Of a stretch of DNA of 64,000 nt, positions 6,766-64,000 are shown one piece after another. A model generated the notes under the pieces. It worked only from the letters and a program-made list of their open reading frames with translations, made no database searches and was not told the origin of the DNA. Each line of letters opens with the position of its first letter. Positions within the stretch are counted from its first letter, which is position 1. Position numbers and translations under genes: made by a program. Origin of the DNA: Escherichia coli (GTDB taxonomy: Bacteria; Pseudomonadota; Gammaproteobacteria; Enterobacterales; Enterobacteriaceae); assembly GCF_003334405.1 (NCBI RefSeq), contig NZ_QOWM01000011.1. The stretch is one strand, 5' to 3'.

Positions 6766-8298
6766 TTATTCCTTCACCTGATGCACAACATCGATCACCG
6801 AGCCATCGCGGTAACGCACAACGGCAACGACGCGGTCTGTGAATTCAATCGGCTGTGGTTCACCGGTCAGCAGACGCGCACGTTCGCGCAGCCACTCAAT
6901 GGAAACCACTTTAATGCCCGCTTCCTGCAGACGTTCTGCCAGTTCCGGACGTGCCGGGTTAACTGCGATACCGTGGTCTGTGACCAGAATATCGACACTG
7001 GAGCCTGGGGTGATGCAGGTCAGTACGTTATCCACCAGAGTCGGAATACGACCGCGTACCAGCGGCGCGACGATGATGGAAAGCGCAGAGGCAATCGCGG
7101 TATCGCAGTGACCACCGGAAGCACCACGCAGTACGCCGTCAGAGCCGGTCAGCACGTTAACGTTGAACTGGGTGTCAATTTCCAGCGCGCTCAGTACCAC
7201 CACGTCGAGACGATCAACCGATGCGCCTTTCGAACCCCAGTTAGCGTACTGGTTGGCGCTGATTTCGATGTGATTGGGGTTACGGGCCAGCGATTGCGCA
7301 GCATGGCTGTCAAAGCTCTGCACATCCAGCAGTTTGCGGATCAGACCTTTTTCGTGCAGGTCAACCATCGTCGCGGTAATACCGCCAAGGGCGAAGTCGG
7401 CGCGAATATCGCGGCTACGCATTTTGTCTTCCAGGAAACGGGTTACCGCCAGCGATGCGCCGCCGGTGCCGGTTTGCATGGAGAAACCTTCTTTGAAGTA
7501 GCCAGAGTTGACAATCACATCCGCAGCGCTACGGGCAATAAGCAGTTCGCGCGGGTTAGTGGTCATACGGGTCGCGCCAGCGCCGATTTTTGCAGCATCG
7601 CCAACGCGGTCAACTTTGACGATCAAATCAACCTGATCTTGCTCAATGCTTGCCGGATTATGCGGATAAGGCAGCAGTTCTTCGGTAAGCATCACGACCT
7701 GTTTTGCGTTGTCGGCATCAACCATTGCATAGCCGAGGGAGCCGCAGCAGGCTTTACCGGTGTAGCCGTTGGCATTACCGAATTCATCACAGGACGGGAC
7801 GCCGAGGAAAGCCACGTCGATATTCAGTTCGCCGCTCTGTACCAGATGCACACGACCGCCGTGAGAGTGGATCTGCACCGGTTCTGCCAGCAGACCACGG
7901 GAGATCTCTTCCGCCAGTGGACCACGCAGGCCGGAGGTATAAATGCGGGTAACCACGCCCTGGCGAATGTGTTCTACCAGCGGCGCATGGCAATCACTCA
8001 GGGAGCTGGACGCCAGGGTCAGGTTTTTAAAGCCCATCTTCGCGATGACGTCCATCACCATATTGACGGTCAGGTCACCGCCACGGAAAGCGTGATGGAA
8101 GGAAACCGTCATGCCGTCCTGTAAACCAGAGCGACGAATCGCTTCTTCCAGGTTGGCGCACAGTTTGCGATCGCGCGCTTTTTCAGCCTGGTAGGTTTGC
8201 TTTGGCGAGTTCTGGAAAGCGGCAAGATCGCATTCAGCGCGACGATTCCAGGCCGCTACCCGTTCTTGTCGTTGAGATTGTTCAATTTTCTGCGTCAT
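6766..8298 (-). CDS. citF: Citrate lyase alpha subunit (citrate CoA-transferase)
   Basis: ORF 6766..8340; the internal start MTQKIEQSQ... gives the remembered 510-aa product. Confidence 0.9.
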   Translation of the reverse strand: MTQKIEQSQRQERVAAWNRRAECDLAAFQNSPKQTYQAEKARDRKLCANLEEAIRRSGLQDGMTVSFHHAFRGGDLTVNMVMDVIAKMGFKNLTLASSSLSDCHAPLVEHIRQGVVTRIYTSGLRGPLAEEISRGLLAEPVQIHSHGGRVHLVQSGELNIDVAFLGVPSCDEFGNANGYTGKACCGSLGYAMVDADNAKQVVMLTEELLPYPHNPASIEQDQVDLIVKVDRVGDAAKIGAGATRMTTNPRELLIARSAADVIVNSGYFKEGFSMQTGTGGASLAVTRFLEDKMRSRDIRADFALGGITATMVDLHEKGLIRKLLDVQSFDSHAAQSLARNPNHIEISANQYANWGSKGASVDRLDVVVLSALEIDTQFNVNVLTGSDGVLRGASGGHCDTAIASALSIIVAPLVRGRIPTLVDNVLTCITPGSSVDILVTDHGIAVNPARPELAERLQEAGIKVVSIEWLRERARLLTGEPQPIEFTDRVVAVVRYRDGSVIDVVHQVKE

Positions 8299-38234: not shown

Positions 38235-38942
38235 ATGAATAAGGAAGAACAATATCTTCTTTTTGCGCTTTCTGCGCCCATGGAAATACTTAATCAGGGT
38301 TGCAAACCCGCGCATGACTCGCCAAAAATGTATACTGGGATAAAAGAATTCGAGCTCTCATCATCCTGGGGAATAAATAATCGTGATGATTTAATTCAGA
38401 CTATTTATCAGATGACTGATGATGGTCATGCCAATGATTTAGCTGGCTTATATCTGACATGGCATCGCTCTTCCCCTGAAGAGTGGAAAGCATTAATTGC
38501 TGGTGGCTCGGAGAGAGGGTTGATTTATACCCAATTCGTTGCCCAAACCGCTATGTGCTGTGGGGAAGGGGGAATCAAAGCCTGGGATTATGTTCGAATG
38601 GGGTTTCTGTCACGGGTCGGTGTGCTCAACAAGTGGCTGACGGAAGAAGAGAGTTTATGGCTGCAATCGCGCGTCTATGTACGAGCTCACCATTACTATC
38701 ACAGCTGGATGCACTATTTTTCCGCCTATTCGTTAGGACGTCTCTACTGGCAATCTTCTCAGTGCGAAGACAACACTTCGCTACGCGAGGCGCTAACCCT
38801 GTACAAATACGATAGCGCCGGGAGTCGTATGTTCGAAGAGCTGGCAGCGGGAAGCGATCGTTTCTATGCCACGCTTCCCTGGCAGCCATTAACTGTCCAG
38901 TCTGAATGCCCGGTAACGCTTAAGGATGTGAGCGACCTATGA
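38235..38942 (+). CDS. ybeU: DUF1266-family protein (paralog of ybeR)
   Basis: 235-aa ORF; stop overlaps the djlC start (ATGA). Confidence 0.85.
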
Positions 38943-40390
38943 AAACATGTTGGCAAATCCTCGAAATTGAAAGCACGACGCAAATAGACATTATCCGCCA
39001 GGCTTATCTTGCTCGCTTACCGTTGTGTCATCCCGAAACCGATCCGCAAGGGTTTAAAGCATTACGCCAGGCCTATGAAGAGGCCCTGCGACTGGCGGTA
39101 AATCCTGTCGAGGAAGCAGATGATGAAGAAAAAGATGCTGCCGCTGAACATGAAATACTACGTGCATTCAGGACATTACTGGATTCAGAAAGTGATCGTT
39201 TTCAGCCTTCCGCCTGGCAGAAATTTATTCAGCAATTAAATACCTGGAACATGGAGGATGTCGATCAATTACGCTGGCCGCTGTGTGCAATCGCCATAGA
39301 AGCGCGATATCTTTCATTAAATTGTGCTTCTTTGCTGGCAGAGCGTTTGAACTGGCATTCATTTAATGACAGCGAAGGAATGGATGAGGAAGAAAGGGAG
39401 GCTTTTCTTGAGGCCATTCAGGCTGGTGATTGTTTCGATTTCCTTAGCCTTCTGGAATATCCCATTGCGTTGCAGAACCAGACTGTTGAGTATTACTTCG
39501 CGCTGGAACGTTGCTGCCGTTACCATCCTGACTATGTCACTGCGTTTTTGGCGATGGAAGGTCCGTGGTTAATTCCTGATGATGCAAAGTTACATCGCAA
39601 ACTGTTGCGCTGGTACAGCTCGGTGCAAACAGGTATGGCGGAACTCATTCCTGTCGCTCAACAGTGGCAAACGGAAGAACCAGAAAGCGAAGATGCCCGG
39701 TATTACTTGTGTGCACAACGTTTGTACTGCGGCGAGGGGGAAAGCCTGCTTGCCGATCTCTGCGCGTACTGGGAAAGTTACCCATCTACACAAGCTGATA
39801 ATTTGTTGTTGCAGTGGAGCAAGCGTCATTGCCCGGATTATTTCGCGTTATTAGTGATGGTTATCGAAGCGCGGAGCATGGTAGATGCGCAAGGTCAACC
39901 GCTGAAATATGTTCCTGGTGAGAGCGCCCGGACGCGGCTGTTATGGGCGGAGATTTTACATAGCGGAAAATTATCGCCGTTAGGTCAATCGTTTATTGAG
40001 TCGTTATTCTTCAAGCGCAAAGCATGGGCGTGGTGGAAATCGAGAGTCGGTAGCGAGACAGAGCAAGATTCACCGTTCCTGGATTTGTATCGGGTAGCGG
40101 AACAGGTAGTACTTGAAGCGTTTCCGAAACAAGAGATGCTGGCCCGTCTTAATACAAGGCTGGAAGGCGGAGATGCTCATCCATTAGAGGCCATTGTCAC
40201 CCGGATGCTTTTGACGAAAGTGAAACTCGAGCCGGAGGATGAAGATGTCGATGAGCCAACACCTGAAAATCATGAAGAAAAAAATGATGAGGGTGAAAAA
40301 CCACAGAGCATTACCAGCATTATCAAAATCAGTTTAACGGTGCTGGTGATAGGTTATGCTCTCGGCAAAATCGCGATGTTGTTTAGCTGA
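38939..40390 (+). CDS. djlC: J-domain-like protein with a C-terminal transmembrane tail anchor (putative HscC co-chaperone)
   Basis: 483-aa ORF paralogous to djlB; HPE motif; C-terminal hydrophobic segment [21 protein letters not shown]. Confidence 0.85.
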
Positions 40391-40410
40391 CGATGTGTTT
40401 TTTGCGCCGA

Positions 40411-40442
40411 TGCCGGATGCAGCGTTTACGCCGCATCCGGCA
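40411..40442. repeat. REP-like palindrome between convergent djlC and hscC
   Basis: tgccggatgcagcgtttacgccgcatccggca resembles the REP consensus (GCCGGATGCGGCG...). Confidence 0.45.
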
Positions 40443-40449
40443 GCCGTGT

Positions 40450-42120
40450 TTATGGGATCTCAATGGCTAAATAATCGCTCGCCCGCCGCCGAACTTCATC
40501 CACGCGGGCCATATCGTTTGACTGCAACGCCGCATCAAAATCGGTGATCACCCGGCCGATCTCTTCTCGCTCGTCACCCAGCGCCCGCGCCCACAACTCT
40601 TCCAGTTTGGCTTTAAAGGTGCGATTGATGAGCATATCGCGCGGATAAATTTTCAATGCGGATAACCGCGTCCGACTCTCTTCAATCTGCTGCGCGCTCA
40701 ATGTTACCGGGCTGTGGTTAATCACTCTGGACTTAACGCTGCCGTCTTCCAGAAGCACGTCAACTTCAAGCAACCCGTTGATATCATAACTAAAGCGAAT
40801 ATCAATCGACTGATAAGCCCCGGTTTTCTTCAACGGCACATCGAAGGATTCCACCAGAATGTTGTTTTTAACTTTGTGGTTTTCTCCCTGATAGACGTTA
40901 ACCGTAATTGAATCCTGTTCCGGGTGCATGGTTGAATAAGTTTCTACACGCGACACGGGCACAGTGGTGTTTCGTTCAATAATCGGCGAGAAAATGCCGG
41001 AAACGCCCTGGCGGTTAACTTCAACGCCCAACGAGTAAGGGCAAATATCAGTGAGGATTACCTCTTCAATATCTTCACTGCGTAAGCGGCAGGCGGCCTG
41101 GATTGCTGCGCCCAGCGCGACAATGGTGCTCGGATCGTAACTTTGATACGGTAATTTGCCAAACAGACGCACGGCGATTCGCTGCACCAGCGGCATTTGT
41201 GACGCGCCGCCAACCAGCACCAGACTGTCGATTTGACTCGGCTTCAGACGCGCATCGCGCAACGCCTGTTCAATCGGCACTCGCAAGCGATTGAGCAGCG
41301 GCAACCACAAATCTTCCAGTTCGTTCTCGTAAAATTCGCATTCCCGCGTTTCTTCCTGATACTGCCAGCGAATGTGCAATGGCGATTGATTGCTACATTT
41401 TGCCGCTTCCACACAGGCGTACAAGGCTGCCAGTTCACTCTCGTTAAGCGTGGTCCTGGCGACATCCGCGCGTTTTAAAACCTCATCGACCAGCATATGG
41501 GTAAAATCTTCGCCACCAAGAAAGTTGTCGCCAGCGGAGGCGTGAACTTCAATCACCGGCGTGGCGTACTCAAGCACCGTAACGTCAAACGTGCCGCCAC
41601 CGAGATCAAACACCAGCGAACGGGTATTTTGTTGGGTATGCAGGCCATACGCCATCGCAGCTGCTGTGGGTTCATTAATTAAGCGTACCGCATTTAACCC
41701 GGCTAACTCCGCTGCTAAACGGGTATGCTTGCGTTGTTCATCGCTGAAATAAGCCGGAACGGAGATCACCACATCTTTAATCGGACGTTGCAGAAATTCT
41801 TCGGCATCTTCTTTTAATGAGCGTAATACCAAAGAGGACAGTTCTGGCGCGTTAAATGTGTCGCTGCCTAACCGCCAGTTGGTATTACTGCCCATTGCAC
41901 GTTTAAATAACGCTGCCGTTTTATCCGGATGCGAAGTACGCCGTGATACAGCCGGTTTTCCGACTAAAATATGATTATTTTCATCCATGCTAATTATGGA
42001 TGGTGTTAAATATTCACCGAACTTATTTGGAATTAATTGCGCGGCACCGTCTTTCCAGACGGCAATTAAACTATTGGTAGTACCGAGATCGATACCAATG
42101 GCGAGTTCTGCATTATCCAT
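40450..42120 (-). CDS. hscC: Hsp70-family chaperone HscC (Hsc62)
   Basis: 556-aa ORF with Hsp70 signatures IDLGTTNS and DLGGGTFD; shorter than DnaK. Confidence 0.9.
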   Translation of the reverse strand: MDNAELAIGIDLGTTNSLIAVWKDGAAQLIPNKFGEYLTPSIISMDENNHILVGKPAVSRRTSHPDKTAALFKRAMGSNTNWRLGSDTFNAPELSSLVLRSLKEDAEEFLQRPIKDVVISVPAYFSDEQRKHTRLAAELAGLNAVRLINEPTAAAMAYGLHTQQNTRSLVFDLGGGTFDVTVLEYATPVIEVHASAGDNFLGGEDFTHMLVDEVLKRADVARTTLNESELAALYACVEAAKCSNQSPLHIRWQYQEETRECEFYENELEDLWLPLLNRLRVPIEQALRDARLKPSQIDSLVLVGGASQMPLVQRIAVRLFGKLPYQSYDPSTIVALGAAIQAACRLRSEDIEEVILTDICPYSLGVEVNRQGVSGIFSPIIERNTTVPVSRVETYSTMHPEQDSITVNVYQGENHKVKNNILVESFDVPLKKTGAYQSIDIRFSYDINGLLEVDVLLEDGSVKSRVINHSPVTLSAQQIEESRTRLSALKIYPRDMLINRTFKAKLEELWARALGDEREEIGRVITDFDAALQSNDMARVDEVRRRASDYLAIEIP

Positions 42121-46474: not shown

Positions 46475-46870
46475 ATCCAACTCCTTTATCTTCTGCGTTA
46501 AGAACGCATGGATACCCGTTGTGAGTGTTTGTGTTGTTATCGTCTGCAACTTTATTGTGCAGTGTTGTGCCTGTTAGGTAACATTTAGTTTGGCTAAATG
46601 TAAAGATATTGCTGTTTTATTGTTTGTTTTTGCGAGATGCGCCGCACCATTCCGAAGCAAAATTCTTAAAATGCACTCTTTTAGTGCTACCGCTGGATTA
46701 CTGTGGTGCAACTAGGTTGTACTGATGCTGATTCAGGGTTTGCCTTGTATAACAAAGCAATAGATGTGCCAAAGTTGGATAGGAGAATATTGTTATCCGG
46801 ATAATGCACTGATGCCGCATCCGGTGAGCGTGCCGAAATATGGGATGTATTCCGGCACGATAAGAAGGGA

Positions 46871-48409
46871 TTATTTACGTCGCTGACGCAGACTCATCAA
46901 CACAGCAGCAAAACCAAACAATGCCGTCAGCACCCACAGCGGCCAGTTGCCGGTACGTGCGTATGGTGTGAGTCCGGTGGTCGGCGTCACGTTAGTGGTT
47001 AACACCTCGCGGGTGAACTGCGGGATCATCGCCTGAATCTCACCCTGCGGGCCAATCACCGCCGTAATGCCGTTGTTGGTGCTGCGCAACAGTGGGCGCG
47101 CCAGCTCCAGCGCACGCATTCGCGCCATCTGGAAGTGTTGCCATGGACCAATAGATTTACCAAACCACGCATCGTTGGAGATAGTCAGCAGATAGTCGGT
47201 ATCCGGGCGGAAGTTATCGCGCACTTGCTCGCCGAGAATGATCTCGTAGCAAATAGCCGCAGTAAGCTCAATACCATTTGCCGACAGCGGCGGCTGGATA
47301 TATGGCCCACGGCTGAACGACGACATCGGCAGATCAAAGAACGGTGCTAACGGACGCAGAATCGACTCCAGCGGGACAAACTCGCCAAACGGCACCAGAT
47401 GGTTTTTGTTATAGCGATCGGCTGATTCGTAGCTGTACGGCGCACCTTTACCCAGCGTGATGATGGTGTTGTAGGTATCGTAGCGGTTCTGCTTATTGAG
47501 ACGCGCGTCGACAATCCCGGTTACCAGCGAGCTACCTTTATCACGCAACTCACCGTCCAGTGCTTTGAGGAACGGTTGCTGATTAATTTCCAGATCGGTT
47601 ATCGCCGACTCCGGCCAGATAATCAACGATGATTTGCCCATCAGCGGTGCCGTTGCGTTGTAGTAAATCTTCAGCGTATTAAGAAGCTGGCCTTCGTCCC
47701 ATTTCAGCGATTGCGGAATATCGCCCTGAACCATCGAAACCTGAATGGTTTTCTCCGGTTGTGGGGTAAACCACTGGATGTAACGCAGCGGGAAGGGAAG
47801 GGCAAACAGCACGACGGCCACCACCAGCGGACGCCAGTTGCGTTTGACCAACGCCAGTGCCAGCAGGCCACTAACCATCATCAGCAGGAAGTTAATGGCT
47901 TCCACGCCCATTATCGGTGCCAGCCCTTTTAACGGGCCATCAATCTGGCTATAGCCGAACTGTAACCACGGGAAGCCGGTCAGTACCCAACCGCGCAGAA
48001 ACTCGGTCACTTGCCAGAGGGCAGGGGCGGCAATCGCTACGCGCAGCCAGGTGGTTTTCGGCCACAGACGCGACAGCACGCCAGCAAACAGTCCGGTATA
48101 CAGCGACAAATACGCCGCCAGCAGCACCACCAGGAAGATGTTAACCGGGCCAGGCATTCCGCCAAAGGTCGCGATGCTGACATAGACCCAGTTAATACCG
48201 CTGCCAAAGAGGCCAAATCCCCAGCAAAAGCCAATAGCGGCAGACTGGAGTGGACGGCGGTTAAAGGTCAACGCCTGAAGCCCCATCAGCGAAATAATCG
48301 CCGCAGGCCAGACGTCGTAAGGAGAGAAGGCCAGCGTTCCGCAGGCACCGAATAATAACGCCAGCAGCAGGCGAATGCGCTGGCGTTCAATTAATGAGGC
48401 AAAAGCCAT
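46871..48409 (-). CDS. lnt: Apolipoprotein N-acyltransferase
   Basis: 512-aa ORF with N-terminal transmembrane helices and a CN-hydrolase domain. Confidence 0.95.
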
Positions 48410-52628: not shown

Positions 52629-53804
52629 ATGACAAATCAACCAACGGAAATTGCCATTGTCGGCGGAGGAATGGTCGGCGGCGCACTGGCGCTGGGGCTG
52701 GCACAGCACGGATTTGCGGTAACGGTGATCGAGCACGCAGAACCAGCGCCGTTTGTCGCTGATAGCCAACCGGACGTGCGGATCTCGGCGATCAGCGCGG
52801 CTTCGGTATCATTGCTTAAAGGGTTAGGGGTCTGGGATGCAGTACAGGCTATGCGTTGCCATCCTTACCGCAGACTGGAAACGTGGGAGTGGGAAACGGC
52901 GCATGTGGTGTTTGACGCCGCTGAACTTAAGCTACCGCTGCTTGGCTATATGGTGGAAAACACTGTCCTGCAACAGGCGTTGTGGCAGGCGCTGGAAGCG
53001 CATCCGAAAGTAACGTTACGTGTGCCAGGCTCGCTGATTGCGCTGCATCGCCATGATGATCTTCAGGAGCTGGAGCTGAAAGGCGGTGAAGTGATTCGCG
53101 CGAAGCTGGTGATTGGTGCCGACGGCGCAAATTCGCAGGTGCGGCAGATGGCGGGAATTGGCGTTCATGCATGGCAGTATGCGCAGTCGTGCATGTTGAT
53201 TAGCGTCCAGTGCGAGAACGATCCCGGCGACAGCACCTGGCAGCAATTTACTCCGGACGGACCGCGTGCGTTTCTGCCGTTGTTTGATAACTGGGCATCG
53301 CTGGTGTGGTATGACTCTCCGGCGCGTATTCGCCAGTTGCAGAATATGAATATGGCACAGCTCCAGGCGGAAATCGCGAAGCATTTCCCGTCGCGTCTGG
53401 GTTACGTTACACCGCTTGCCGCTGGTGCGTTTCCGCTGACGCGTCGCCATGCGTTGCAGTACGTGCAGCCAGGGCTTGCGCTGGTGGGCGATGCCGCGCA
53501 TACCATCCATCCGCTGGCGGGGCAGGGAGTGAATCTTGGTTATCGTGATGTCGATGCCCTGATTGATGTTCTGGTCAACGCCCGCAGCTACGGCGAAGCG
53601 TGGGCCAGTTATCCTGTCCTCAAGCGTTACCAGATGCGGCGCATGGCGGATAACTTCATTATGCAAAGCGGTATGGATCTGTTTTATGCCGGATTCAGCA
53701 ATAATCTGCCACCACTGCGTTTTATGCGTAATCTCGGGTTAATGGCGGCGGAGCGTGCTGGCGTGTTGAAACGTCAGGCGCTGAAATATGCGTTAGGGTT
53801 GTAG
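52629..53804 (+). CDS. ubiF: FAD-dependent ubiquinone-biosynthesis hydroxylase
   Basis: ORF 52623..53804 (TTG in the track); ATG at 52629 gives MTNQPTEIAIVGGGMVGG with an FAD-binding GxGxxG (391 aa). Confidence 0.9.
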   Translation: MTNQPTEIAIVGGGMVGGALALGLAQHGFAVTVIEHAEPAPFVADSQPDVRISAISAASVSLLKGLGVWDAVQAMRCHPYRRLETWEWETAHVVFDAAELKLPLLGYMVENTVLQQALWQALEAHPKVTLRVPGSLIALHRHDDLQELELKGGEVIRAKLVIGADGANSQVRQMAGIGVHAWQYAQSCMLISVQCENDPGDSTWQQFTPDGPRAFLPLFDNWASLVWYDSPARIRQLQNMNMAQLQAEIAKHFPSRLGYVTPLAAGAFPLTRRHALQYVQPGLALVGDAAHTIHPLAGQGVNLGYRDVDALIDVLVNARSYGEAWASYPVLKRYQMRRMADNFIMQSGMDLFYAGFSNNLPPLRFMRNLGLMAAERAGVLKRQALKYALGL

Positions 53805-53814
53805 CCTTACAACA

Positions 53815-53900
53815 TTGCCGGATGCGTGCCAACCGTAGGTCGGATAAGACGCGGCAGCGTCGCATCCGACATTGAAGGATAAGACGTGTCAACATCGCAT
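53815..53900. repeat. REP/BIME palindromic elements downstream of ubiF
   Basis: tgccggatgcg...taggtcggataagacgcg...cgtcgcatccgacatt match REP-type palindromes. Confidence 0.6.
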
Positions 53901-53925
53901 TCGACATTGAATGAACGCAGAAAAG

Positions 53926-53953
53926 CAAAAAGCTCGCCGAAGCGAGCTTTTTT
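53926..53953. terminator. Bidirectional rho-independent terminator between ubiF and the tRNA operon
   Basis: aaaaagctcgccgaagcgagctttttt: 7-bp stem, GNRA-like loop, flanking A- and T-runs. Confidence 0.8.
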
Positions 53954-53957
53954 AATG

Positions 53958-54032
53958 TGGCTGGGGTACGAGGATTCGAACCTCGGAATGCCGGAATCAG
54001 AATCCGGTGCCTTACCGCTTGGCGATACCCCA
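53958..54032 (-). tRNA. glnV: tRNA-Gln (anticodon CUG)
   Basis: 75-nt reverse complement matches the tRNA-Gln cloverleaf with anticodon loop TTCTGAT and 3' CCA; could equally be called glnX. Confidence 0.9.
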
Positions 54033-54079
54033 ACAAATTGGTTTTGAATTTGCCGAACATATTCGACACATTCAGAATT

Positions 54080-54156
54080 TGGTGGCTACGACGGGATTCG
54101 AACCTGTGACCCCATCATTATGAGTGATGTGCTCTAACCAACTGAGCTACGTAGCC
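54080..54156 (-). tRNA. metU: tRNA-Met elongator (anticodon CAU)
   Basis: 77-nt reverse complement GGCTACGTAGCTCAGTTGG...CCA with anticodon loop CTCATAA. Confidence 0.9.
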
Positions 54157-54171
54157 AGATTGTTTCTTCGA

Positions 54172-54246
54172 TGGCTGGGGTACCTGGATTCGAACCAGGG
54201 AATGCCGGTATCAAAAACCGGTGCCTTACCGCTTGGCGATACCCCA
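54172..54246 (-). tRNA. glnW: tRNA-Gln (anticodon UUG)
   Basis: 75-nt tRNA-Gln with anticodon loop TTTTGAT; could equally be called glnU. Confidence 0.9.
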
Positions 54247-54269
54247 TCCGTACAACGCTTTCTGGTGAA

Positions 54270-54354
54270 TGGTGCGGGAGGCGAGACTTGAACTCGCACA
54301 CCTTGCGGCGCCAGAACCTAAATCTGGTGCGTCTACCAATTTCGCCACTCCCGC
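54270..54354 (-). tRNA. leuW: tRNA-Leu (anticodon UAG)
   Basis: 85-nt reverse complement GCGGGAGTGGCGAAATTGG...CCA with a long variable arm and anticodon TAG. Confidence 0.9.
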
Positions 54355-54363
54355 AAAAAAAGA

Positions 54364-54440
54364 TGGTGGCTACGACGGGATTCGAACCTGTGACCCCATC
54401 ATTATGAGTGATGTGCTCTAACCAACTGAGCTACGTAGCC
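54364..54440 (-). tRNA. metT: tRNA-Met elongator (anticodon CAU)
   Basis: 77-nt copy of the same tRNA-Met as 54080..54156. Confidence 0.9.
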
Positions 54441-54819: not shown

Positions 54820-56484
54820 TTACTTATACGCCGACTGGTGAACACCAACCGCGCGACCAGACGGATCGTCCATTTTCTTGAACGCTTCATCCCATTCGAT
54901 CGCTTTAGCGGAAGAACAAGCGACGGAAGGACCGCCCGGCACGCACTCAGCGGCGCTCGGAAGCGGGAATAGTTCTTCAAAGATCTCCCGATACAAGTAC
55001 GCTTCTTTAGAGGTTGGCGTGTTGTACGGGAAGCGGAAGCGGGCAGTTTCCAGTTGCTGATCAGAAACCTGCTGCGCAGCCACTTCTTTCAGGGTGTCGA
55101 TCCAACTGTAACCGACGCCATCGGAGAACTGCTCTTTCTGCCGCCAGGCCACGCTTGCAGGCAGATACGCTTCAAAACATTCACGCAGGATGTGTTTTTC
55201 CATTTTGCCGTTACCGCACATTTTATCCTGTGGGTTAATACGCATCGCCACATCAAGGAATTTTTTGTCGAGGAACGGAACGCGTGCTTCCACGCCCCAG
55301 GCTGACATCGCTTTGTTGGCACGCGCGCAGTCATACATATGCAGGGCCAGCAGTTTACGCACCGTCTCTTCATGCAGTTCTTTGGCATTCGGTGCTTTGT
55401 GGAAGTAAAGATAACCGCCGAACACTTCATCAGAACCTTCACCGGACAGCACCATTTTAATGCCCATCGCCTTGATCTTACGCGACATTAAATACATCGG
55501 TGTTGAAGCGCGAATAGTGGTCACATCATAAGTTTCGATGTGGTAAATCACGTCGCGGATGGCATCCAGACCTTCCTGTACAGTGAAGTGAATTTCGTGA
55601 TGCACCGTGCCCAGATGGTTTGCCACTTCCTGGGCTGCTTTCAGATCCGGTGAACCCGGCAGACCTACAGCAAAGGAGTGTAACTGCGGCCACCAGGCTT
55701 CAGAGCGTTCCTGATCTTCCACGCGACGGGCTGCGTATTTCTTGGTGATAGCGGAAATAATTGAGGAATCCAGACCACCAGAAAGCAGCACACCGTAAGG
55801 CACATCAGACATCAGATGGCTTTTAACTGAATCTTCCAGTGCCTGACGCAGCTCGTTTTTGTCGGTCACGTTATCTTTCACCGCATCGTAGTCGAACCAG
55901 TCGCGATGATAGTAAGAACGGATTTCGCCGTCCTGGCTCCACAAATAGCTCCCCGCCGGGAACTCTTTAATCGTGCGGCAAACTGGCACCAGCGCTTTCA
56001 TTTCTGAGGCCACATACAGCTGACCGTGTTCGTCATACCCCATATACAGTGGGATGATCCCCAGATGGTCGCGACCAATCAGGTAGGCATCTTTTTCGCT
56101 GTCGTACAGTGCAAAGGCAAACATGCCCTGCAAGTCGTCGAGAAATTCCGGCCCTTTTTCCTGATACAGCGCGAGGATCACTTCACAGTCAGACCCGGTC
56201 TGGAACTGGTAACGATCGCCATATTCGGCGCGCAATGCCTGGTGGTTGTAGATTTCACCGTTTACCGCCAGTACGTGGGTTTTTTGTTGGTTGTAGAGAG
56301 GTTGCGCCCCCGCGTTAACGTCAACAATTGACAGACGTTCGTGGGCGAGAATGGCGTTATCGCTGGCATAAATACCGGACCAGTCCGGGCCACGATGACG
56401 CATCAGGCGTGACAGCTCGAGGGCTTTCTTACGCAGCTCAACTGCGTCTGTTTTGATATCGAATACGCCAAAAATTGAACACAT
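54820..56484 (-). CDS. asnB: Asparagine synthetase B (glutamine-hydrolysing)
   Basis: ORF 54820..56565; start at MCSIFGVFDI (554 aa) with N-terminal Cys nucleophile and PP-loop SGGLDSS. Confidence 0.95.
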   Translation of the reverse strand: MCSIFGVFDIKTDAVELRKKALELSRLMRHRGPDWSGIYASDNAILAHERLSIVDVNAGAQPLYNQQKTHVLAVNGEIYNHQALRAEYGDRYQFQTGSDCEVILALYQEKGPEFLDDLQGMFAFALYDSEKDAYLIGRDHLGIIPLYMGYDEHGQLYVASEMKALVPVCRTIKEFPAGSYLWSQDGEIRSYYHRDWFDYDAVKDNVTDKNELRQALEDSVKSHLMSDVPYGVLLSGGLDSSIISAITKKYAARRVEDQERSEAWWPQLHSFAVGLPGSPDLKAAQEVANHLGTVHHEIHFTVQEGLDAIRDVIYHIETYDVTTIRASTPMYLMSRKIKAMGIKMVLSGEGSDEVFGGYLYFHKAPNAKELHEETVRKLLALHMYDCARANKAMSAWGVEARVPFLDKKFLDVAMRINPQDKMCGNGKMEKHILRECFEAYLPASVAWRQKEQFSDGVGYSWIDTLKEVAAQQVSDQQLETARFRFPYNTPTSKEAYLYREIFEELFPLPSAAECVPGGPSVACSSAKAIEWDEAFKKMDDPSGRAVGVHQSAYK

Positions 56485-56730
56485 AACCTTCTCCGTTAAC
56501 CTGGTATTTGTTGCTTGTTGTGTTTGCTTGTTTAAAAAAATGCCGCAAAGCAGCACTGTGCGCAAGCGATTTGGCGGTGAAAAAATAAAAAACGTAATGG
56601 TGATTGTCGATTGGTGAAAAAAGGTCTGGTGTGAGGATATATTTATTGATGAATCGATAATTTTTAGCGGGTTTTATTGAATGTTTATATTTTACGGGGG
56701 CCAAATTGCTGACAAAGTGCGATTTGTTCA

Positions 56731-56830
56731 TGCCGGATGCGGCGTGAACGCCTTATCCGGCCTACAAAAGCATGAAAATTCAATATATTGCAGGAGCTGC
56801 GTAGGCCTGATAAGCGTAGCGCATCAGGCA
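56731..56830. repeat. REP/BIME cluster between asnB and umpH
   Basis: tgccggatgcggcgtgaacgccttatccggcctac and gtaggcctgataagcgtagcgcatcaggc match REP consensus palindromes. Confidence 0.65.
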
Positions 56831-56880
56831 GTTTGGCGTTTGTCATCAGAGCCAACCACGTCCGCAGACGTGGTTGCTAT

Positions 56881-57633
56881 TCAGATAACGTCGATTTCAG
56901 CGACTGACGGGTAAATCCAGCTGGGGCGGAAAGGCATACTGTCGATATCGTCGAGCGACGAAACACCAGAAAGCACCAGAATCGTCTCCAGACCTGCCTG
57001 GAAGCCGGCCAGAATATCGGTACGCAGGTTATCGCCGACAATCACCGTTTCTTCCGAATGCGCCTGCATTTTGTTTAATGCTGCGCGGATGATCCACGGG
57101 CTGGGCTTACCAACATAGAACGGTTTGCGCCCGGAGATTTTCTCAATCCCTGCACACAACGCGCCACAAGCGGGATAAAAACCGCGCCCGTGGGTGTCCG
57201 GATTGGTGGCGATAAAACGTGCACCGTTAGCGACGAAATAGGCTGCTTTATGCATCATGTCCCAGTTGTAGGAACGCGTTTCGCCAACAATCACGAAATC
57301 AGGGTTCACATCGGTAATAGTGAAACCGGCTTTGTACAGTTCATGAATCAGTGCGCCTTCGCCCACCACATACGCTTTCTTGCCTTCCTGGCGACGCAGG
57401 AAATCGGCAGTCGCCATCGCAGAGGTATAAAACACGCTGTCAGGTACATCGACACCTGCGGTGGCAAAGCGGTTCGCCAGATCTTGCCCAGTCTGCGAAG
57501 GATAGTTGGTCAGCAACACCAGCGGCAGGCCTTTATCCATAATCCCGTGCAAAAATTCCGCTGCACCCGGTACGGCGACGTTATCGTGCATCAGCACGCC
57601 GTCGATATCGCAAATTACATTTTTAATGGTCAT
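56881..57633 (-). CDS. umpH: HAD-superfamily UMP phosphatase
   Basis: 250-aa ORF with the HAD motif I DIDGVL. Confidence 0.9.
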   Translation of the reverse strand: MTIKNVICDIDGVLMHDNVAVPGAAEFLHGIMDKGLPLVLLTNYPSQTGQDLANRFATAGVDVPDSVFYTSAMATADFLRRQEGKKAYVVGEGALIHELYKAGFTITDVNPDFVIVGETRSYNWDMMHKAAYFVANGARFIATNPDTHGRGFYPACGALCAGIEKISGRKPFYVGKPSPWIIRAALNKMQAHSEETVIVGDNLRTDILAGFQAGLETILVLSGVSSLDDIDSMPFRPSWIYPSVAEIDVI

Positions 57634-61250: not shown

Positions 61251-63197
61251 ATGAATATTTTAGGTTTTTTCCAGCGACTCGGTAGGGCGTTACAGCTCCC
61301 TATCGCGGTGCTGCCGGTGGCGGCACTGTTGCTGCGATTCGGTCAGCCAGATTTACTTAACGTTGCGTTTATTGCCCAGGCGGGCGGTGCGATTTTTGAT
61401 AACCTCGCATTAATCTTCGCCATCGGTGTGGCATCCAGCTGGTCGAAAGACAGCGCTGGTGCGGCGGCGCTGGCGGGTGCGGTAGGTTACTTTGTGTTAA
61501 CCAAAGCGATGGTGACCATCAACCCAGAAATTAACATGGGTGTACTGGCGGGTATCATTACCGGTCTGGTTGGTGGCGCAGCCTATAACCGTTGGTCCGA
61601 TATTAAACTGCCGGACTTCCTGAGCTTCTTCGGCGGCAAACGCTTTGTGCCGATTGCCACCGGATTCTTCTGCCTGGTGCTGGCGGCCATTTTTGGTTAC
61701 GTCTGGCCGCCGGTACAGCACGCTATCCATGCAGGCGGCGAGTGGATCGTTTCTGCGGGCGCGCTGGGTTCCGGTATCTTTGGTTTCATCAACCGTCTGC
61801 TGATCCCAACCGGTCTGCATCAGGTACTGAACACCATCGCCTGGTTCCAGATTGGTGAATTCACCAACGCGGCGGGTACGGTTTTCCACGGTGACATTAA
61901 CCGCTTCTATGCCGGTGACGGCACCGCGGGGATGTTCATGTCCGGCTTCTTCCCGATCATGATGTTCGGTCTGCCGGGTGCGGCGCTGGCGATGTACTTC
62001 GCAGCACCGAAAGAGCGTCGTCCGATGGTTGGCGGTATGCTGCTTTCTGTTGCTGTTACTGCGTTCCTGACCGGTGTGACTGAGCCGCTGGAATTCCTGT
62101 TCATGTTCCTTGCTCCGCTGCTGTACCTCCTGCACGCACTGCTGACCGGTATCAGCCTGTTTGTGGCAACGCTGCTGGGTATCCACGCGGGCTTCTCTTT
62201 CTCTGCGGGGGCTATCGACTACGCGTTGATGTATAACCTGCCGGCCGCCAGCCAGAACGTCTGGATGCTGCTGGTGATGGGCGTTATCTTCTTCGCTATC
62301 TACTTCGTGGTGTTCAGTTTGGTTATCCGCATGTTCAACCTGAAAACGCCGGGTCGTGAAGATAAAGAAGACGAGATCGTTACTGAAGAAGCCAACAGCA
62401 ACACTGAAGAAGGTCTGACTCAACTGGCAACCAACTATATTGCTGCGGTTGGCGGCACTGACAACCTGAAAGCGATTGACGCCTGTATCACCCGTCTGCG
62501 CCTTACAGTGGCTGACTCTGCCCGCGTTAACGATACGATGTGTAAACGTCTGGGTGCTTCTGGGGTAGTGAAACTGAACAAACAGACTATTCAGGTGATT
62601 GTTGGCGCGAAAGCAGAATCCATCGGCGATGCGATGAAGAAAGTCGTTGCCCGTGGTCCGGTAGCCGCTGCGTCAGCTGAAGCAACTCCGGCAACTGCCG
62701 CGCCTGTAGCAAAACCGCAGGCTGTACCAAACGCGGTATCTATCGCGGAGCTGGTATCGCCGATTACCGGTGATGTCGTGGCACTGGATCAGGTTCCTGA
62801 CGAAGCATTCGCCAGCAAAGCGGTGGGTGACGGTGTGGCGGTGAAACCGACAGATAAAATCGTCGTATCACCAGCCGCAGGGACAATCGTGAAAATCTTC
62901 AACACCAACCACGCGTTCTGCCTGGAAACCGAAAAAGGCGCGGAGATCGTCGTCCATATGGGTATCGACACCGTAGCGCTGGAAGGTAAAGGCTTTAAAC
63001 GTCTGGTGGAAGAGGGTGCGCAGGTAAGCGCAGGGCAACCGATTCTGGAAATGGATCTGGATTACCTGAACGCTAACGCCCGCTCGATGATTAGCCCGGT
63101 GGTTTGCAGCAATATCGACGATTTCAGTGGCTTGATCATTAAAGCTCAGGGCCATGTTGTGGCGGGTCAAACACCGCTGTATGAAATCAAAAAGTAA
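61251..63197 (+). CDS. nagE: PTS N-acetylglucosamine-specific EIICBA component
   Basis: 648-aa ORF with N-terminal EIIC membrane domain, EIIB cysteine region (CITRLR) and C-terminal EIIA. Confidence 0.95.
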   Translation: MNILGFFQRLGRALQLPIAVLPVAALLLRFGQPDLLNVAFIAQAGGAIFDNLALIFAIGVASSWSKDSAGAAALAGAVGYFVLTKAMVTINPEINMGVLAGIITGLVGGAAYNRWSDIKLPDFLSFFGGKRFVPIATGFFCLVLAAIFGYVWPPVQHAIHAGGEWIVSAGALGSGIFGFINRLLIPTGLHQVLNTIAWFQIGEFTNAAGTVFHGDINRFYAGDGTAGMFMSGFFPIMMFGLPGAALAMYFAAPKERRPMVGGMLLSVAVTAFLTGVTEPLEFLFMFLAPLLYLLHALLTGISLFVATLLGIHAGFSFSAGAIDYALMYNLPAASQNVWMLLVMGVIFFAIYFVVFSLVIRMFNLKTPGREDKEDEIVTEEANSNTEEGLTQLATNYIAAVGGTDNLKAIDACITRLRLTVADSARVNDTMCKRLGASGVVKLNKQTIQVIVGAKAESIGDAMKKVVARGPVAAASAEATPATAAPVAKPQAVPNAVSIAELVSPITGDVVALDQVPDEAFASKAVGDGVAVKPTDKIVVSPAAGTIVKIFNTNHAFCLETEKGAEIVVHMGIDTVALEGKGFKRLVEEGAQVSAGQPILEMDLDYLNANARSMISPVVCSNIDDFSGLIIKAQGHVVAGQTPLYEIKK

Positions 63198-63399
63198 TCT
63201 GCTTTATGCCTGATGCGACGCTTGAGCGTCGCATCCAACAATGACAAGCGGTGGAGATCTTCTCTGCCGCTTTTTTTTTCATCAATCATCCCCATAATCC
63301 TTGTTAGATTATCAATTTTAAAAAACTAACAGTTGTCAGCCTGTCCCGCTTATAAGATCATACGCCGTTATACGTTGTTTACGCTTTGAGGAATCCACG

Positions 63400-64000
63400 A
63401 TGAGTGAGGCAGAAGCCCGCCCGACTAACTTTATCCGTCAGATCATCGATGAAGATCTGGCCAGTGGTAAGCACACCACAGTACACACCCGTTTCCCGCC
63501 GGAGCCGAATGGCTATCTGCATATTGGCCATGCGAAATCTATCTGCCTGAACTTCGGGATCGCCCAGGACTATAAAGGCCAGTGCAACCTGCGTTTCGAC
63601 GACACTAACCCGGTAAAAGAAGATATCGAGTATGTTGAGTCGATCAAAAACGACGTAGAGTGGTTAGGTTTTCACTGGTCTGGTAACGTCCGTTACTCCT
63701 CCGATTATTTTGATCAGCTCCACGCCTATGCGATCGAACTGATCAATAAAGGCCTGGCGTACGTTGATGAACTGACGCCGGAACAGATCCGCGAATACCG
63801 CGGCACCCTGACGCAACCGGGTAAAAACAGCCCGTACCGCGACCGCAGCGTTGAAGAGAACCTGGCGCTGTTCGAAAAAATGCGTGCCGGTGGTTTTGAA
63901 GAAGGTAAAGCCTGCCTGCGTGCGAAAATCGACATGGCTTCACCGTTTATCGTGATGCGCGATCCGGTGCTGTACCGTATTAAATTTGCTGAACACCACC
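63400..64000 (+). CDS. glnS: Glutaminyl-tRNA synthetase, 5' part (runs off the window)
   Basis: Open frame from ATG 63400 (GAGGAA Shine-Dalgarno upstream) translating [20 protein letters not shown]... with class I HIGH motif (LHIGHAKS); no stop before the window end. Confidence 0.9.

What the first reader, a model, noticed from the sequence alone, without database searches (positions are those of the whole stretch)
56731..56830. REP/BIME palindromic clusters at three convergent or 3' gene junctions
REP-type palindromes (GCCGGATGCGGCG...) occur after ubiF (53815..53900), between asnB and umpH (56731..56830), and as a single REP-like hairpin between djlC and hscC (40411..40442). They mark sites of mRNA 3'-end stabilisation and possible gyrase/IHF binding. 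The one between djlC and hscC puts a core-genome type repeat at the edge of the Hsp70 island.
Basis: partly seen in the sequence, partly recalled or inferred. Interest (0 to 1): 0.2.

Follow-up and report, generated by a model that had tools for sequence, protein, structure and literature searches.

The report
Known E. coli REP/BIME repeats
These are ordinary, already catalogued E. coli REP repeats (REP57, REP61 and neighbours) sitting in 3' untranslated regions; the only mildly interesting point is that the one after nagD/umpH has replaced the U-tract of that gene's terminator and is present in only about 42% of E. coli genomes.

Summary
All three sites carry REP-type palindromes far beyond chance: a 32-position REP consensus with up to 6 substitutions hits 4 loci in the window and none in 100 shuffles. 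The window is E. coli chromosome, collinear with MG1655 about 641-705 kb.

- **Site 1 (asnB-umpH)** is a canonical BIME-1/RIP, MG1655 REP61: y REP, 35-nt L linker with an IHF-like site, inverted z1 REP. The repeated unit is about 148 nt (56702-56849), not 100 nt.
- **Site 2 (after ubiF)** is one good REP, a degenerate tandem copy and a truncated arm, lying upstream of a conserved bidirectional terminator.
- **Site 3 (djlC/hscC)** is REP57, a GTAG-less symmetric hairpin. It is published as a mapped bidirectional terminator. One strain has the REP-specific IS1397 inserted in its loop.

Corrections to the interpretation:
- umpH and asnB are co-directional, not convergent.
- No BIME-2, the gyrase-linked class, is present.
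- REP57 lies inside the Hsp70 island, not at its edge.

In the K-12-type allele (2280 of 5426 genomes) the BIME-1 block replaces the U-tract of the ancestral nagD terminator. Published data place a rut site and Rho-dependent termination just downstream.

Verdict: already known, low interest.

The parts
56702..56730 (.). Conserved left flank motif of the BIME-1 unit (CAAATTGCTGACAAAGTGCGATTTGTTCA)
   Evidence: It is shared at about 90% identity with paralogous BIME-1 copies at fepA-entD and satP-mog. It is absent from the BIME-less allele.
56731..56765 (+). y-type REP. On the + strand it reads as iREP ending in CTAC at 56762-56765. On the - strand it reads GTAG + hairpin.
   Evidence: It has 0 mismatches to the REP consensus. 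The naRNA4 hairpin alignment scores 38.2 bits. It is part of MG1655 REP61, 699426-699523.
56766..56800 (.). L linker of BIME-1. It carries an IHF-consensus-like site, ATTCAATATATTG, at 56778-56790, which matches 8 of the 9 specified positions of WATCAANNNNTTR.
   Evidence: Rfam ES036 (RF02751) matches at 41.1 bits against a gathering score of 37.6. The same model hits the linker of two paralogous BIME-1 copies at 50.6 and 42.2 bits and finds nothing in the BIME-less allele. The linker recurs at a median of 8 places per E. coli genome at E<=0.01.
56801..56830 (+). z1-type REP (GTAG at 56801-56804), inverted relative to the y REP
   Evidence: There is an exact match to CTTATCAGGCCTAC on the - strand. 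The inverted-repeat arms were found. The BIME-1 definition of y + z1 across an L linker comes from PMC3333891.
56831..56849 (.). Conserved right flank motif of the BIME-1 unit (AGTTTGGCGTTTGTCATCAG), partly complementary to the left flank
   Evidence: It is shared with the paralogs. In the minimum-free-energy fold the flanks pair.
56853..56876 (-). nagD/umpH 3' stem-loop: the remnant of the ancestral intrinsic terminator, now without its U-tract
   Evidence: It is a 10-bp perfect stem with dG -17 kcal/mol. The T-tail score is 0.56, against 2.1-3.4 in the BIME-less E. coli allele and in four other species. Alignments show that the BIME block replaces TCTTATTTTTACCCATCAT. The promoter/terminator scan calls no terminator here.
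56568..56718 (-). Published Rho-utilisation (rut) peak immediately downstream of the BIME on the nag-operon strand (MG1655 699261-699411)
   Evidence: In the Harris 2026 supplement the peak has log10 enrichment 2.31 without NusG and 1.94 with NusG. It lies 15 nt from REP61 and overlaps the bicyclomycin-significant transcript 699148-699502. The Adams 2021 Rho region peaks at 699190(-).
53813..53829 (+). Truncated REP arm (CATTGCCGGATGCGTGC) 9 nt after the ubiF stop codon
   Evidence: It pairs with 53861-53874 in the predicted fold.
53835..53870 (+). REP with 5' GTAG (GTAGGTCGGATAAGACGCGGCAGCGTCGCATCCGAC)
   Evidence: It has 2 substitutions from the consensus. naRNA4 scores 31.2 bits. It is conserved in E. 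whittamii and E. albertii and in 5367 of 5426 E. coli genomes.
53873..53906 (+). Degenerate direct (tandem) copy of the preceding REP
   Evidence: The naRNA4 alignment places two hairpins in tandem on the - strand, and the second has broken pairs.
53927..53952 (.). Bidirectional intrinsic terminator shared by ubiF and the metT-glnX tRNA operon. It is not a REP.
   Evidence: It is an 11-bp perfect stem flanked by an A-run and a T-run. It is conserved across Enterobacteriaceae. Rho-region peaks at 696377(-) and 696419(+) flank it.
40411..40442 (.). REP57: a symmetric REP-like hairpin between the convergent genes djlC and hscC, with no GTAG/CTAC
   Evidence: naRNA4 scores 29.8 and 28.4 bits on the two strands. 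It is listed as mapped bidirectional terminator 681679-681717, labelled REP57. IS1397 is inserted in its loop with a TTAT duplication in strain 06-00048.
63205..63241 (.). REP62: a chimeric REP-like hairpin between the nagE stop codon and the nagE terminator.
   Evidence: It is annotated REP62, 705898-705933. E. albertii and E. whittamii carry a two-REP BIME at the same place.
46792..46827 (-). REP59: a weak, degenerate REP 45 nt after the lnt stop codon.
   Evidence: It has 7 substitutions from the consensus. It is annotated REP59, 689265-689298.

Best explanation
The three sites, and two more in the window, are ordinary members of the E. coli REP/PU repeat family. They lie in 3' untranslated regions and act locally on RNA 3'-end formation.

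Site 1 (asnB-umpH):
- It is a single BIME-1 (RIP/RIB type): flank, y REP, 35-nt L linker with an IHF-type site, inverted z1 REP, flank.
- In the K-12-type allele this roughly 160-nt block sits immediately after the nagD/umpH terminator stem. It has replaced the 19 nt that held the U-tract.
- Transcription of the nag operon therefore probably no longer stops efficiently at the intrinsic terminator. It runs into the BIME and is ended by Rho at the rut site just downstream.
- The remaining stem-loop and the REP hairpins would protect the processed 3' end. The DNA form of the L linker probably binds IHF.

Sites 2 and 4 (ubiF, nagE):
- REP hairpins lie between the stop codon and a retained intrinsic terminator. 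They are structured 3'-UTR elements.
- The foot of the hairpin lies within 15 nt of the stop codon. That is the distance at which REPs have been reported to reduce translation of the upstream gene.

Site 3 (REP57):
- It is a GTAG-less symmetric hairpin, most simply read as a collapsed two-REP BIME.
- It serves as a bidirectional terminator or exonuclease barrier for the convergent genes djlC and hscC.

What is shown:
- Identity, architecture and copy number of the repeats.
- Presence or absence across genomes and orthologous loci.
- Replacement of the U-tract.
- IS1397 targeting of REP57.
- The published rut, Rho and terminator mappings.

What is inferred:
- Loss of intrinsic termination at nagD.
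- IHF occupancy at site 1.
- Any translational effect.
- The collapse origin of REP57.
For: Family identity:
- Consensus matches are far above the shuffle control.
- Rfam naRNA4 hairpin alignments support all three sites.
- The sites are annotated REP57, REP59, REP61 and REP62 in MG1655.

BIME-1 architecture:
- The published definition is y + z1, single copy, long conserved L linker with an IHF site.
- The L linker is matched by ES036 here and in the paralogs.
- The 148-nt unit is shared with fepA-entD and satP-mog.

Terminator replacement:
- 40 of 74 orthologous nagD-asnB loci have AACCACG...CGTGGTT followed by a T-tract.
- 13 to 19 of the 74 have REP-like hairpins at that place instead, and none has both. 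The hypergeometric P is 9e-6 to 9e-9, not corrected for phylogeny.
- BIME-less E. coli and E. albertii keep TTTCTTATTTTT. The K-12 type and E. whittamii have the BIME block there.
- The T-tail score is 0.56 in the K-12 allele against 2.1-3.4 elsewhere.

Rho dependence:
- A rut peak at 699261-699411(-) lies 15 nt from REP61 and overlaps a bicyclomycin-significant transcript.
- At the Rho region peaking at 699190(-), downstream reads rise from 50 to 187 with bicyclomycin.
- Rho-dependent transcripts in general end at stable stem-loops without U-tracts (PMC6061677).

Site 3:
- It is in the published bidirectional-terminator list.
- IS1397, which inserts specifically into REPs, sits in its loop.

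Site 4:
- The Term-seq 3' end at 705969(+) falls in the nagE terminator T-run, downstream of REP62.
- The two-REP ancestor is seen in E. albertii and E. whittamii.
Against: - No 3' end inside the nagD-asnB spacer is listed in the Term-seq tables I could read. The actual nagD 3' ends in K-12 therefore remain unmapped here.
- The Rho score uses 800-nt windows. The Rho signal at 699190 could equally reflect premature termination in the asnB leader rather than termination of nag read-through.
- The rut region is mostly native sequence that BIME-less strains also carry.
- IHF binding at this copy was not tested. The ChIP supplement was not available.
- Genome-wide, terminal REPs do not lengthen mRNA half-lives.
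- Sites 2 and 3 are not multi-copy at megablast stringency.
- REP57 lacks the GTAG that defines canonical REPs.
- The exclusivity statistic ignores shared ancestry among the 74 species.
Confidence: 0.85

Rival explanations
1. The centre of site 1 (56766-56808) is a small-RNA gene, Rfam ES036/CssrF, rather than a repeat linker.
For: ES036 (RF02751) matches the + strand at 41.1 bits, above its gathering score of 37.6.
Against: - The same 43-nt model matches the linkers of paralogous BIME-1 copies at satP-mog (50.6 bits) and fepA-entD (42.2 bits).
- The sequence recurs at a median of 8 places per genome. The model therefore describes a multi-copy repeat linker.
- Its last 9 positions are the GTAGGCCT of the neighbouring REP.
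- No promoter-like or terminator-like site flanks it on the + strand.
- The surrounding transcription (nagD, asnB) runs on the - strand.
Confidence: 0.04
2. The palindromes are locus-specific intrinsic terminators or chance GC-rich hairpins that only resemble REPs.
For: - Sites 2 and 3 have one place per genome by megablast.
- REP57 lacks GTAG and is an almost perfect palindrome.
- REP57 is listed as a bidirectional terminator.
Against: - None of these hairpins is followed by a T-tract.
- They match a 32-position REP consensus at levels never reached in shuffles.
- REP57's arms are each the canonical GCCGGATGCGGCG arm, with at most one change.
- A REP-specific insertion sequence has used its loop as a target.
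- Site 1 is unambiguously multi-copy.
Confidence: 0.05
3. The elements are mainly DNA-level chromosome-structuring sites (gyrase, IHF or HU-naRNA anchors), and effects on transcripts are secondary.
For: - REPs are reported to bind IHF, Pol I and gyrase.
- The L linker carries an IHF-type site.
- The naRNA4 family derives from a REP proposed to organise the nucleoid.
Against: - The gyrase reference cited is titled for BIME-2, and no BIME-2 is present here.
- The 2026 study found no nucleoid compaction by REP325/naRNA4 and no long-range REP-REP contacts. It attributes the main effect to local termination and RNA stability.
- All five elements lie in transcribed 3' regions, oriented and spaced relative to stop codons and terminators.
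Confidence: 0.06

Closest known systems
BIME-1 (also called RIP / RIB elements) of E. coli
   Same: - A y REP and a z1 REP lie in inverse orientation.
- It is a single copy.
- The 35-nt L linker is conserved and carries an IHF-consensus-like site.
- The flanking motifs are conserved.
- It sits at the 3' end of a transcription unit.
   Different: Nothing structural differs. This copy sits exactly where the U-tract of the ancestral nagD terminator was, and it is present in only about 42% of complete E. coli genomes.
Canonical single REP / palindromic unit (y, z1, z2 types; MG1655 REP57, REP59, REP61, REP62)
   Same: - They are extragenic imperfect palindromes of 30-40 nt with GCC(G/T)GATGCG...CTTATC(C/A)GGCCTAC arms.
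- They lie in 3' UTRs between tandem or convergent genes.
- They are targets of IS1397.
   Different: - REP57 and REP62 lack the GTAG/CTAC tetranucleotide and the asymmetric stem bubble required for TnpA(REP) binding.
- Both of their arms are 'left-arm' type, as expected if the inner halves of an inverted REP pair were deleted.
- The second REP at site 2 is decayed.
REP325 in the yjdMN operon (naRNA4), the model 'dual terminator-stabiliser' REP
   Same: - It lies between tandem genes.
- It shows partially Rho-dependent attenuation of the downstream gene together with a protective 3' structure for the upstream gene.
- Site 1 has a rut peak and a bicyclomycin-sensitive transcript immediately downstream.
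   Different: REP325 is a cluster of six y-z2 repeats inside an operon. Site 1 is a single BIME-1 with an IHF linker that lies between two separate transcription units and upstream of the asnB promoter region.
BIME-2 (gyrase-cleaved y/z2 arrays)
   Same: It is built from the same REP family. The site 2 REP has a z2-like upper stem (GCGACGC...GCGTC).
   Different: There is no alternating y/z2 tandem array and no S linker at any site. Site 2 has two REPs in direct rather than inverted orientation.

Membership tests
REP / palindromic unit (E. coli) | Imperfect palindrome of 30-40 nt matching the conserved REP arms | tested here: met
   The number of substitutions from a 32-position consensus is 0 for 56732-56765, 2 for 53835-53870, 6 for 40408-40445 and 6 for 63204-63239. 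No shuffle reaches 6 or fewer.
REP / palindromic unit (E. coli) | Conserved GTAG tetranucleotide 5' of the hairpin foot, and a mismatch bubble in the stem (both required for TnpA-REP binding, PMC3333891) | tested here: inconclusive
   Met for the y and z1 REPs of site 1 (CTAC at 56762-56765, GTAG at 56801-56804) and for 53835-53870 (GTAG at 53835-53838). Not met for REP57 (40411-40442) or REP62 (63205-63241), which have no GTAG/CTAC and have near-symmetric arms.
REP / palindromic unit (E. coli) | High copy number in the genome | tested here: inconclusive
Sites 2 and 3 find a median of 1 place per genome at megablast stringency, so they belong by consensus and not by near-identity.
REP / palindromic unit (E. 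coli) | Extragenic location at the 3' end of genes (tandem or convergent pairs) | tested here: met
   All five elements lie between a stop codon and the next gene or terminator. The published genome-wide distribution is about 40% tandem and about 60% convergent.
REP / palindromic unit (E. coli) | Recognised as a target by REP-specific insertion sequences (IS1397, IS621) | tested here: met
   In strain 06-00048 an IS1397-family element is inserted in the loop of the djlC/hscC hairpin with a TTAT duplication. The specificity of IS1397 comes from PMC1525189. This was not examined for the other sites.
BIME-1 / RIP / RIB | One y and one z1 REP in inverse orientation, present as a single copy (not a tandem array) | tested here: met
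   The z1 assignment rests on that definition (the partner of y across an L linker), because the consensus figure itself could not be read.
BIME-1 / RIP / RIB | Long, conserved L linker carrying an IHF consensus | tested here: met
   The 35-nt linker is matched by the ES036 model here and in two paralogs. ATTCAATATATTG matches 8 of 9 specified positions of WATCAANNNNTTR; the consensus is from my own knowledge.
BIME-1 / RIP / RIB | IHF actually binds the element | not testable with these tools
   The ChIP-seq supplement was not held, and the Boccard and Prentki 1993 paper was not held.
BIME-2 (gyrase target) | Alternating y and z2 REPs with a short S linker, in tandem copies | tested here: not met
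   No such array exists at any site. The whole-window consensus scan finds only the five loci listed.
Intrinsic (Rho-independent) terminator | GC-rich stem-loop followed directly by a U-tract | tested here: not met
   The nagD stem-loop 56853-56876 has a T-tail score of 0.56, and the scan calls no terminator there. No REP hairpin has a T-tract. True terminators exist separately at 53927-53952 and about 63250-63279.
Rfam ES036 (CssrF) sRNA | Sequence and structure match above the gathering score | tested here: met
   The match scores 41.1 bits against a gathering score of 37.6.
Rfam ES036 (CssrF) sRNA | An independent transcript produced from this locus | not tested
   No flanking promoter or terminator is seen on the + strand. 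The model matches other BIME-1 linkers. No transcript data were available.

The most novel reading that the evidence does not exclude
The BIME-1 after nagD/umpH is a natural regulatory switch.
- By replacing the U-tract of the nag-operon terminator it converts intrinsic termination into Rho-dependent termination 15-150 nt further on.
- It places an IHF-bending site about 170-200 nt upstream of the asnB start region.
- In the roughly 42% of E. coli that carry it (K-12 type), GlcNAc-induced nag transcription would leak into, or interfere with, asnB in a Rho- or IHF-dependent way.
- In the roughly 57% without it (O157:H7, ST131, strain 83972) this would not happen.
- The recurrent, mutually exclusive replacement of this same terminator by lineage-specific REPs in Citrobacter, Salmonella, Pseudocitrobacter and Trabulsiella would then mean that REPs are selected as functional substitutes for intrinsic terminators.
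Probability: 0.25. Interest if true: 0.4.

Novelty: already known. Interest (0 to 1): 0.15.

Why it matters
It matters little as a discovery. The elements are catalogued (REP57, REP59, REP61, REP62), and their family has been studied since 1984.

Two points may be useful.

First, the nagD-asnB spacer is a clean natural presence/absence polymorphism: 2280 genomes with the BIME against 3097 without, out of 5426. The BIME-1 exactly replaces a terminator U-tract. This offers a ready-made test of the current 'REPs are context-dependent terminator/stabiliser dials' model without any engineering.

Second, three junctions in this window (nagD, nagE, ubiF) have been colonised independently by lineage-specific REPs across Enterobacteriaceae. 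At nagD the REPs replace the terminator. At nagE and ubiF they are added upstream of it. This bears on how REPs choose and keep their sites.

Tried and rejected
- Literature searches for 'CssrF' and 'ES036' returned only unrelated papers. The nature of ES036 was settled by scanning paralogs instead.
- The Dar and Sorek 2018 and Prieto 2012 supplements are not held.
- Liang 2015 and Boccard and Prentki 1993 are not held. [quoted passage not shown]
- The Adams 2021 Term-seq tables contain no 3' end in 6992xx-6995xx. The nagD 3' end and the asnB-leader hairpin therefore remain unmapped.
- The half-site pattern searches with 2-3 mismatches were too loose to be informative on their own. GCCKGATGCGNCG gave 26 hits against 14.4 expected, and CTTATCMGGCCTAC gave 9 against 6.2. 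They were replaced by the full-length fuzzy consensus.
- I considered that the window differed from MG1655 in the nagE-glnS spacer because the PGAP gene coordinates of strain 720632 differ by 65 nt. The window is identical to MG1655 there.
- I considered that REP57 marks the island boundary. This was rejected after seeing the island-less configuration.
- The RAYT/TnpA(REP) gene was not looked for, because it lies outside the window.
Full report
**Where the window is.** The window is E. coli chromosome, collinear with MG1655 from about 641.3 to 705 kb. It differs from MG1655 in two ways. It has no IS5D between gltI and lnt. It has five instead of seven tRNA genes in the metT-glnX cluster. Relevant genes, in window coordinates:
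- djlC, 38939-40390, + strand
- hscC, 40450-42120, - strand
- lnt, 46871-48409, - strand
- ubiF, ending at 53804, + strand
- tRNA genes, 53958-54440, - strand
- asnB, 54820-56484, - strand
- nagD/umpH, 56881-57633, - strand
- nagE, ending at 63197, + strand
- glnS, starting at 63400, + strand

The stated sequences are present. I scored the whole window against a Stern-type REP consensus: GCCKGATGCGRCGY, a loop of 0-8 nt, then RCGYCTTATCMGGCCTAC. With up to 6 substitutions it hits four loci: 40408-40445 on both strands, 53835-53870, 56732-56765 and 63204-63239. It hits none in 100 dinucleotide-preserving shuffles. With up to 8 substitutions there are 8 hits against a shuffle mean of 0.12. The Rfam model naRNA4 is built on a two-REP unit. 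It aligns one hairpin at each site at 38.2, 31.2 and 29.8 bits.

**Site 1 is a textbook BIME-1.**
- 56731-56765 is a y REP that ends in CTAC.
- 56801-56830 is an inverted z1 REP that starts with GTAG.
- The 35-nt spacer carries ATTCAATATATTG, which matches 8 of the 9 specified positions of the IHF consensus. The consensus is from my own knowledge.

This is the published definition of BIME-1: y + z1, a single copy, and a long conserved L linker that frequently carries an IHF site (PMC3333891).

The Rfam family ES036/CssrF passes its gathering score on the linker, at 41.1 bits. The same model also hits the linkers of two other BIME-1 copies, at satP-mog (50.6 bits) and fepA-entD (42.2 bits). It finds nothing in a BIME-less allele. 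The linker recurs at a median of 8 places per genome. ES036 is therefore a model of the repeat linker and not evidence for a gene here.

In genomes that lack this copy, the best matches elsewhere cover query positions 43-190, which is window 56702-56849, at about 90% identity. An alignment with the fepA-entD and satP-mog copies shows conserved flanks on both sides. MG1655 annotation calls the element REP61, 699426-699523.

**Gene geometry.** nagD/umpH and asnB are both on the minus strand. The BIME therefore lies 3' of the nag operon and 5' of asnB. This is a tandem junction, not a convergent one.

**Population and orthologs.** Among 5426 complete E. coli genomes:
- 2280 carry the BIME allele.
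- 3097 carry a spacer that is 140 nt shorter. Examples are O157:H7, the O25:H4 strain CU568-3 and strain 83972.

I fetched 80 orthologous loci, one per species, using NagD as the query. Of these, 74 include the nagD-asnB spacer.
- In 40 of the 74, nagD is followed directly by AACCACGyC...GrCGTGGTT and a T-tract, which is a canonical intrinsic terminator.
- In 13 (strict rule) to 19 (loose rule) of the 74, a lineage-specific REP or BIME occupies that position instead. These include members of the Citrobacter freundii group, C. sedlakii, Salmonella diarizonae, Pseudocitrobacter and Trabulsiella.
- No locus has both. The hypergeometric P is 9e-6 to 9e-9, not corrected for shared ancestry.

BIME-less E. 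coli, E. albertii and an unnamed Escherichia species keep the stem followed by TTTCTTATTTTT. In the K-12-type allele, and identically in E. whittamii, the stem is kept. The next 19 nt (TCTTATTTTTACCCATCAT) are replaced by the roughly 160-nt BIME block. The T-tail score falls from 2.1-3.4 to 0.56. The terminator scan finds nothing there.

**What this implies, and what published data say.** A stable stem-loop without a U-tract is the typical steady-state 3' end of Rho-dependent transcripts (PMC6061677).
- The supplement of Harris et al. 2026 lists a strong rut peak at 699261-699411 on the minus strand. Its log10 enrichment is 2.31 without NusG and 1.94 with NusG. It lies 15 nt downstream of REP61 and overlaps a bicyclomycin-significant transcript, 699148-699502.
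- Adams et al. 2021 list a Rho termination region that peaks at 699190(-). Downstream reads there rise from 50 to 187 with bicyclomycin.

These data fit a model in which the K-12-type nag operon is terminated by Rho just beyond the BIME, with the stem-loop and REP hairpins acting as exonuclease stops.

The fit is not proof, for three reasons. The Rho score uses 800-nt windows. The rut region is mostly native sequence. No Term-seq 3' end is listed in this spacer. The same paper's general conclusion is that REPs act as context-dependent, partly Rho-dependent attenuators and stabilisers in 3' UTRs, and that REP positions vary between strains. That is the frame into which this locus falls.

**Site 2 (ubiF).** On the + strand the order is as follows:
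- ubiF stop codon at 53802-53804
- a truncated REP arm at 53813-53829
- a good REP with a 5' GTAG at 53835-53870
- a decayed direct copy at 53873-53906
- the bidirectional terminator at 53927-53952, shared with the tRNA operon

The arrangement is fixed in E. coli (5367 of 5426 genomes). It is shared with E. whittamii and E. albertii. Other genera carry different REPs or other repeats in the same slot, while the terminator itself is widely conserved. In the strict count, 15 of 53 loci are REP-like and 10 of those also keep a terminator. Rho-region peaks at 696377(-) and 696419(+) flank the site.

**Site 3 (djlC/hscC).** The 59-nt spacer between these convergent genes holds a 15+15-nt hairpin. 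Both arms are of the GCCGGATGCGGCG 'left arm' type, and there is no GTAG/CTAC. The hairpin therefore lacks two features needed for TnpA(REP) binding. It is nevertheless annotated REP57. It appears in the list of experimentally derived bidirectional terminators that Harris et al. intersected with REPs, at 681679-681717 with dG -24.6. In strain 06-00048 an IS1397-family element, which is specific for REPs, sits in its loop with a TTAT duplication.

The locus is present in about 80% of the genomes (4377 of 5426 with any match, 4299 covering at least 80% of the query). Where it is absent, ybeL abuts rihA. The variable island is therefore ybeQ-hscC, and REP57 lies inside it, one gene from its right end.

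**Missed elements.**
- REP62 (63205-63241) lies 7-10 nt after the nagE stop codon and upstream of the nagE terminator. The terminator's T-run holds the Term-seq 3' end at 705969.
- E. albertii and E. whittamii carry a two-REP BIME at that place. The E. coli hairpin equals the outer arm of the first REP joined to the outer arm of the second.
- This suggests that GTAG-less symmetric hairpins such as REP62, and by analogy REP57, are collapsed BIMEs. For REP57 this is an inference only.
- REP59 (46792-46827) is a weak REP 45 nt after the lnt stop codon.

**Distance to stop codons.** The feet of the hairpins lie at these distances from the stop codon:
- 7 nt for hscC
- 7-10 nt for nagE
- 8-9 nt for ubiF (outer helix)
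- 20 nt for djlC
- 45 nt for lnt
- 50 nt from the nagD stop codon to the z1 REP

REPs closer than 16 nt to a stop codon have been reported to lower translation (Liang 2015, as summarised in PMC12306157). For hscC, nagE and ubiF this is a plausible but untested extra effect.

**Verdict.** The elements are real and ordinary, and they are already annotated. It is wrong on gene orientation at site 1, on gyrase, and on the island edge. The replacement of the nagD terminator U-tract by a polymorphic BIME-1 is a small observation that can be tested directly. It is not a new kind of element.

Noticed in passing
window 53958-54440: The metT-leuW-gln tRNA cluster has 5 genes here (Gln-CUG, Met, Gln-UUG, Leu, Met). 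MG1655 and strain 720632 have 7. About 221 nt are missing, which fits loss of one Gln-CUG gene and one Gln-UUG gene by recombination between repeated tRNA-Gln genes.
   Followed up: partly
window about 46579 (gltI-lnt spacer): The IS5D copy of MG1655 (687851-689045) is absent from the window. The spacer is 396 nt, as in strain 720632.
   Followed up: partly
window 56539-56557 (- strand), asnB upstream region: A terminator-like hairpin followed by T7 (AGTGCTGCTTTGCGGCATTTTTTT) lies 55-75 nt upstream of the asnB start codon. It is conserved from E. coli to Citrobacter amalonaticus. It could be a leader attenuator or the last stop for nag read-through. A Rho region peaks nearby at 699190. No Term-seq 3' end is listed there.
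   Followed up: partly
window 56766-56808; L005 1266-1307; L006 1262-1304: Rfam family ES036 (RF02751, 'CssrF sRNA') is in effect a model of the BIME-1 L linker plus the first bases of the adjacent REP. It will therefore be called at every BIME-1 copy in enterobacterial genomes.
   Followed up: yes
L087 2599-4037 (E. coli 06-00048): An IS1397-family element is inserted in the loop of the djlC/hscC REP hairpin, with a TTAT target duplication. Its transposase is annotated as a pseudogene (internal stop).
   Followed up: yes
L007 about 7368-7372 (E. whittamii nagD-asnB spacer): E. whittamii shares the same BIME-1 insertion with the same junctions as K-12-type E. coli. However, the GTAG of its y REP reads GTAA and the stem carries further changes. 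This suggests decay of an old shared copy, or a copy that was transferred.
   Followed up: no
L037-L067 (Enterobacter, Lelliottia, Leclercia and related genera), ubiF 3' junction: In these genera a different repeat-like hairpin (CCCTCTCCCyGTGGGAGAGGG followed by CCAGGGTGAGGG) occupies the slot between ubiF and the tRNA-operon terminator, where Escherichia has REPs.
   Followed up: no
window 56600-56700 compared with L002: The roughly 90 nt on the asnB side of the BIME indel differ at about 17 positions between the BIME+ and BIME- haplotypes. The next 137 nt towards asnB are identical. This fits a recombined or long-separated haplotype block around the insertion.
   Followed up: no
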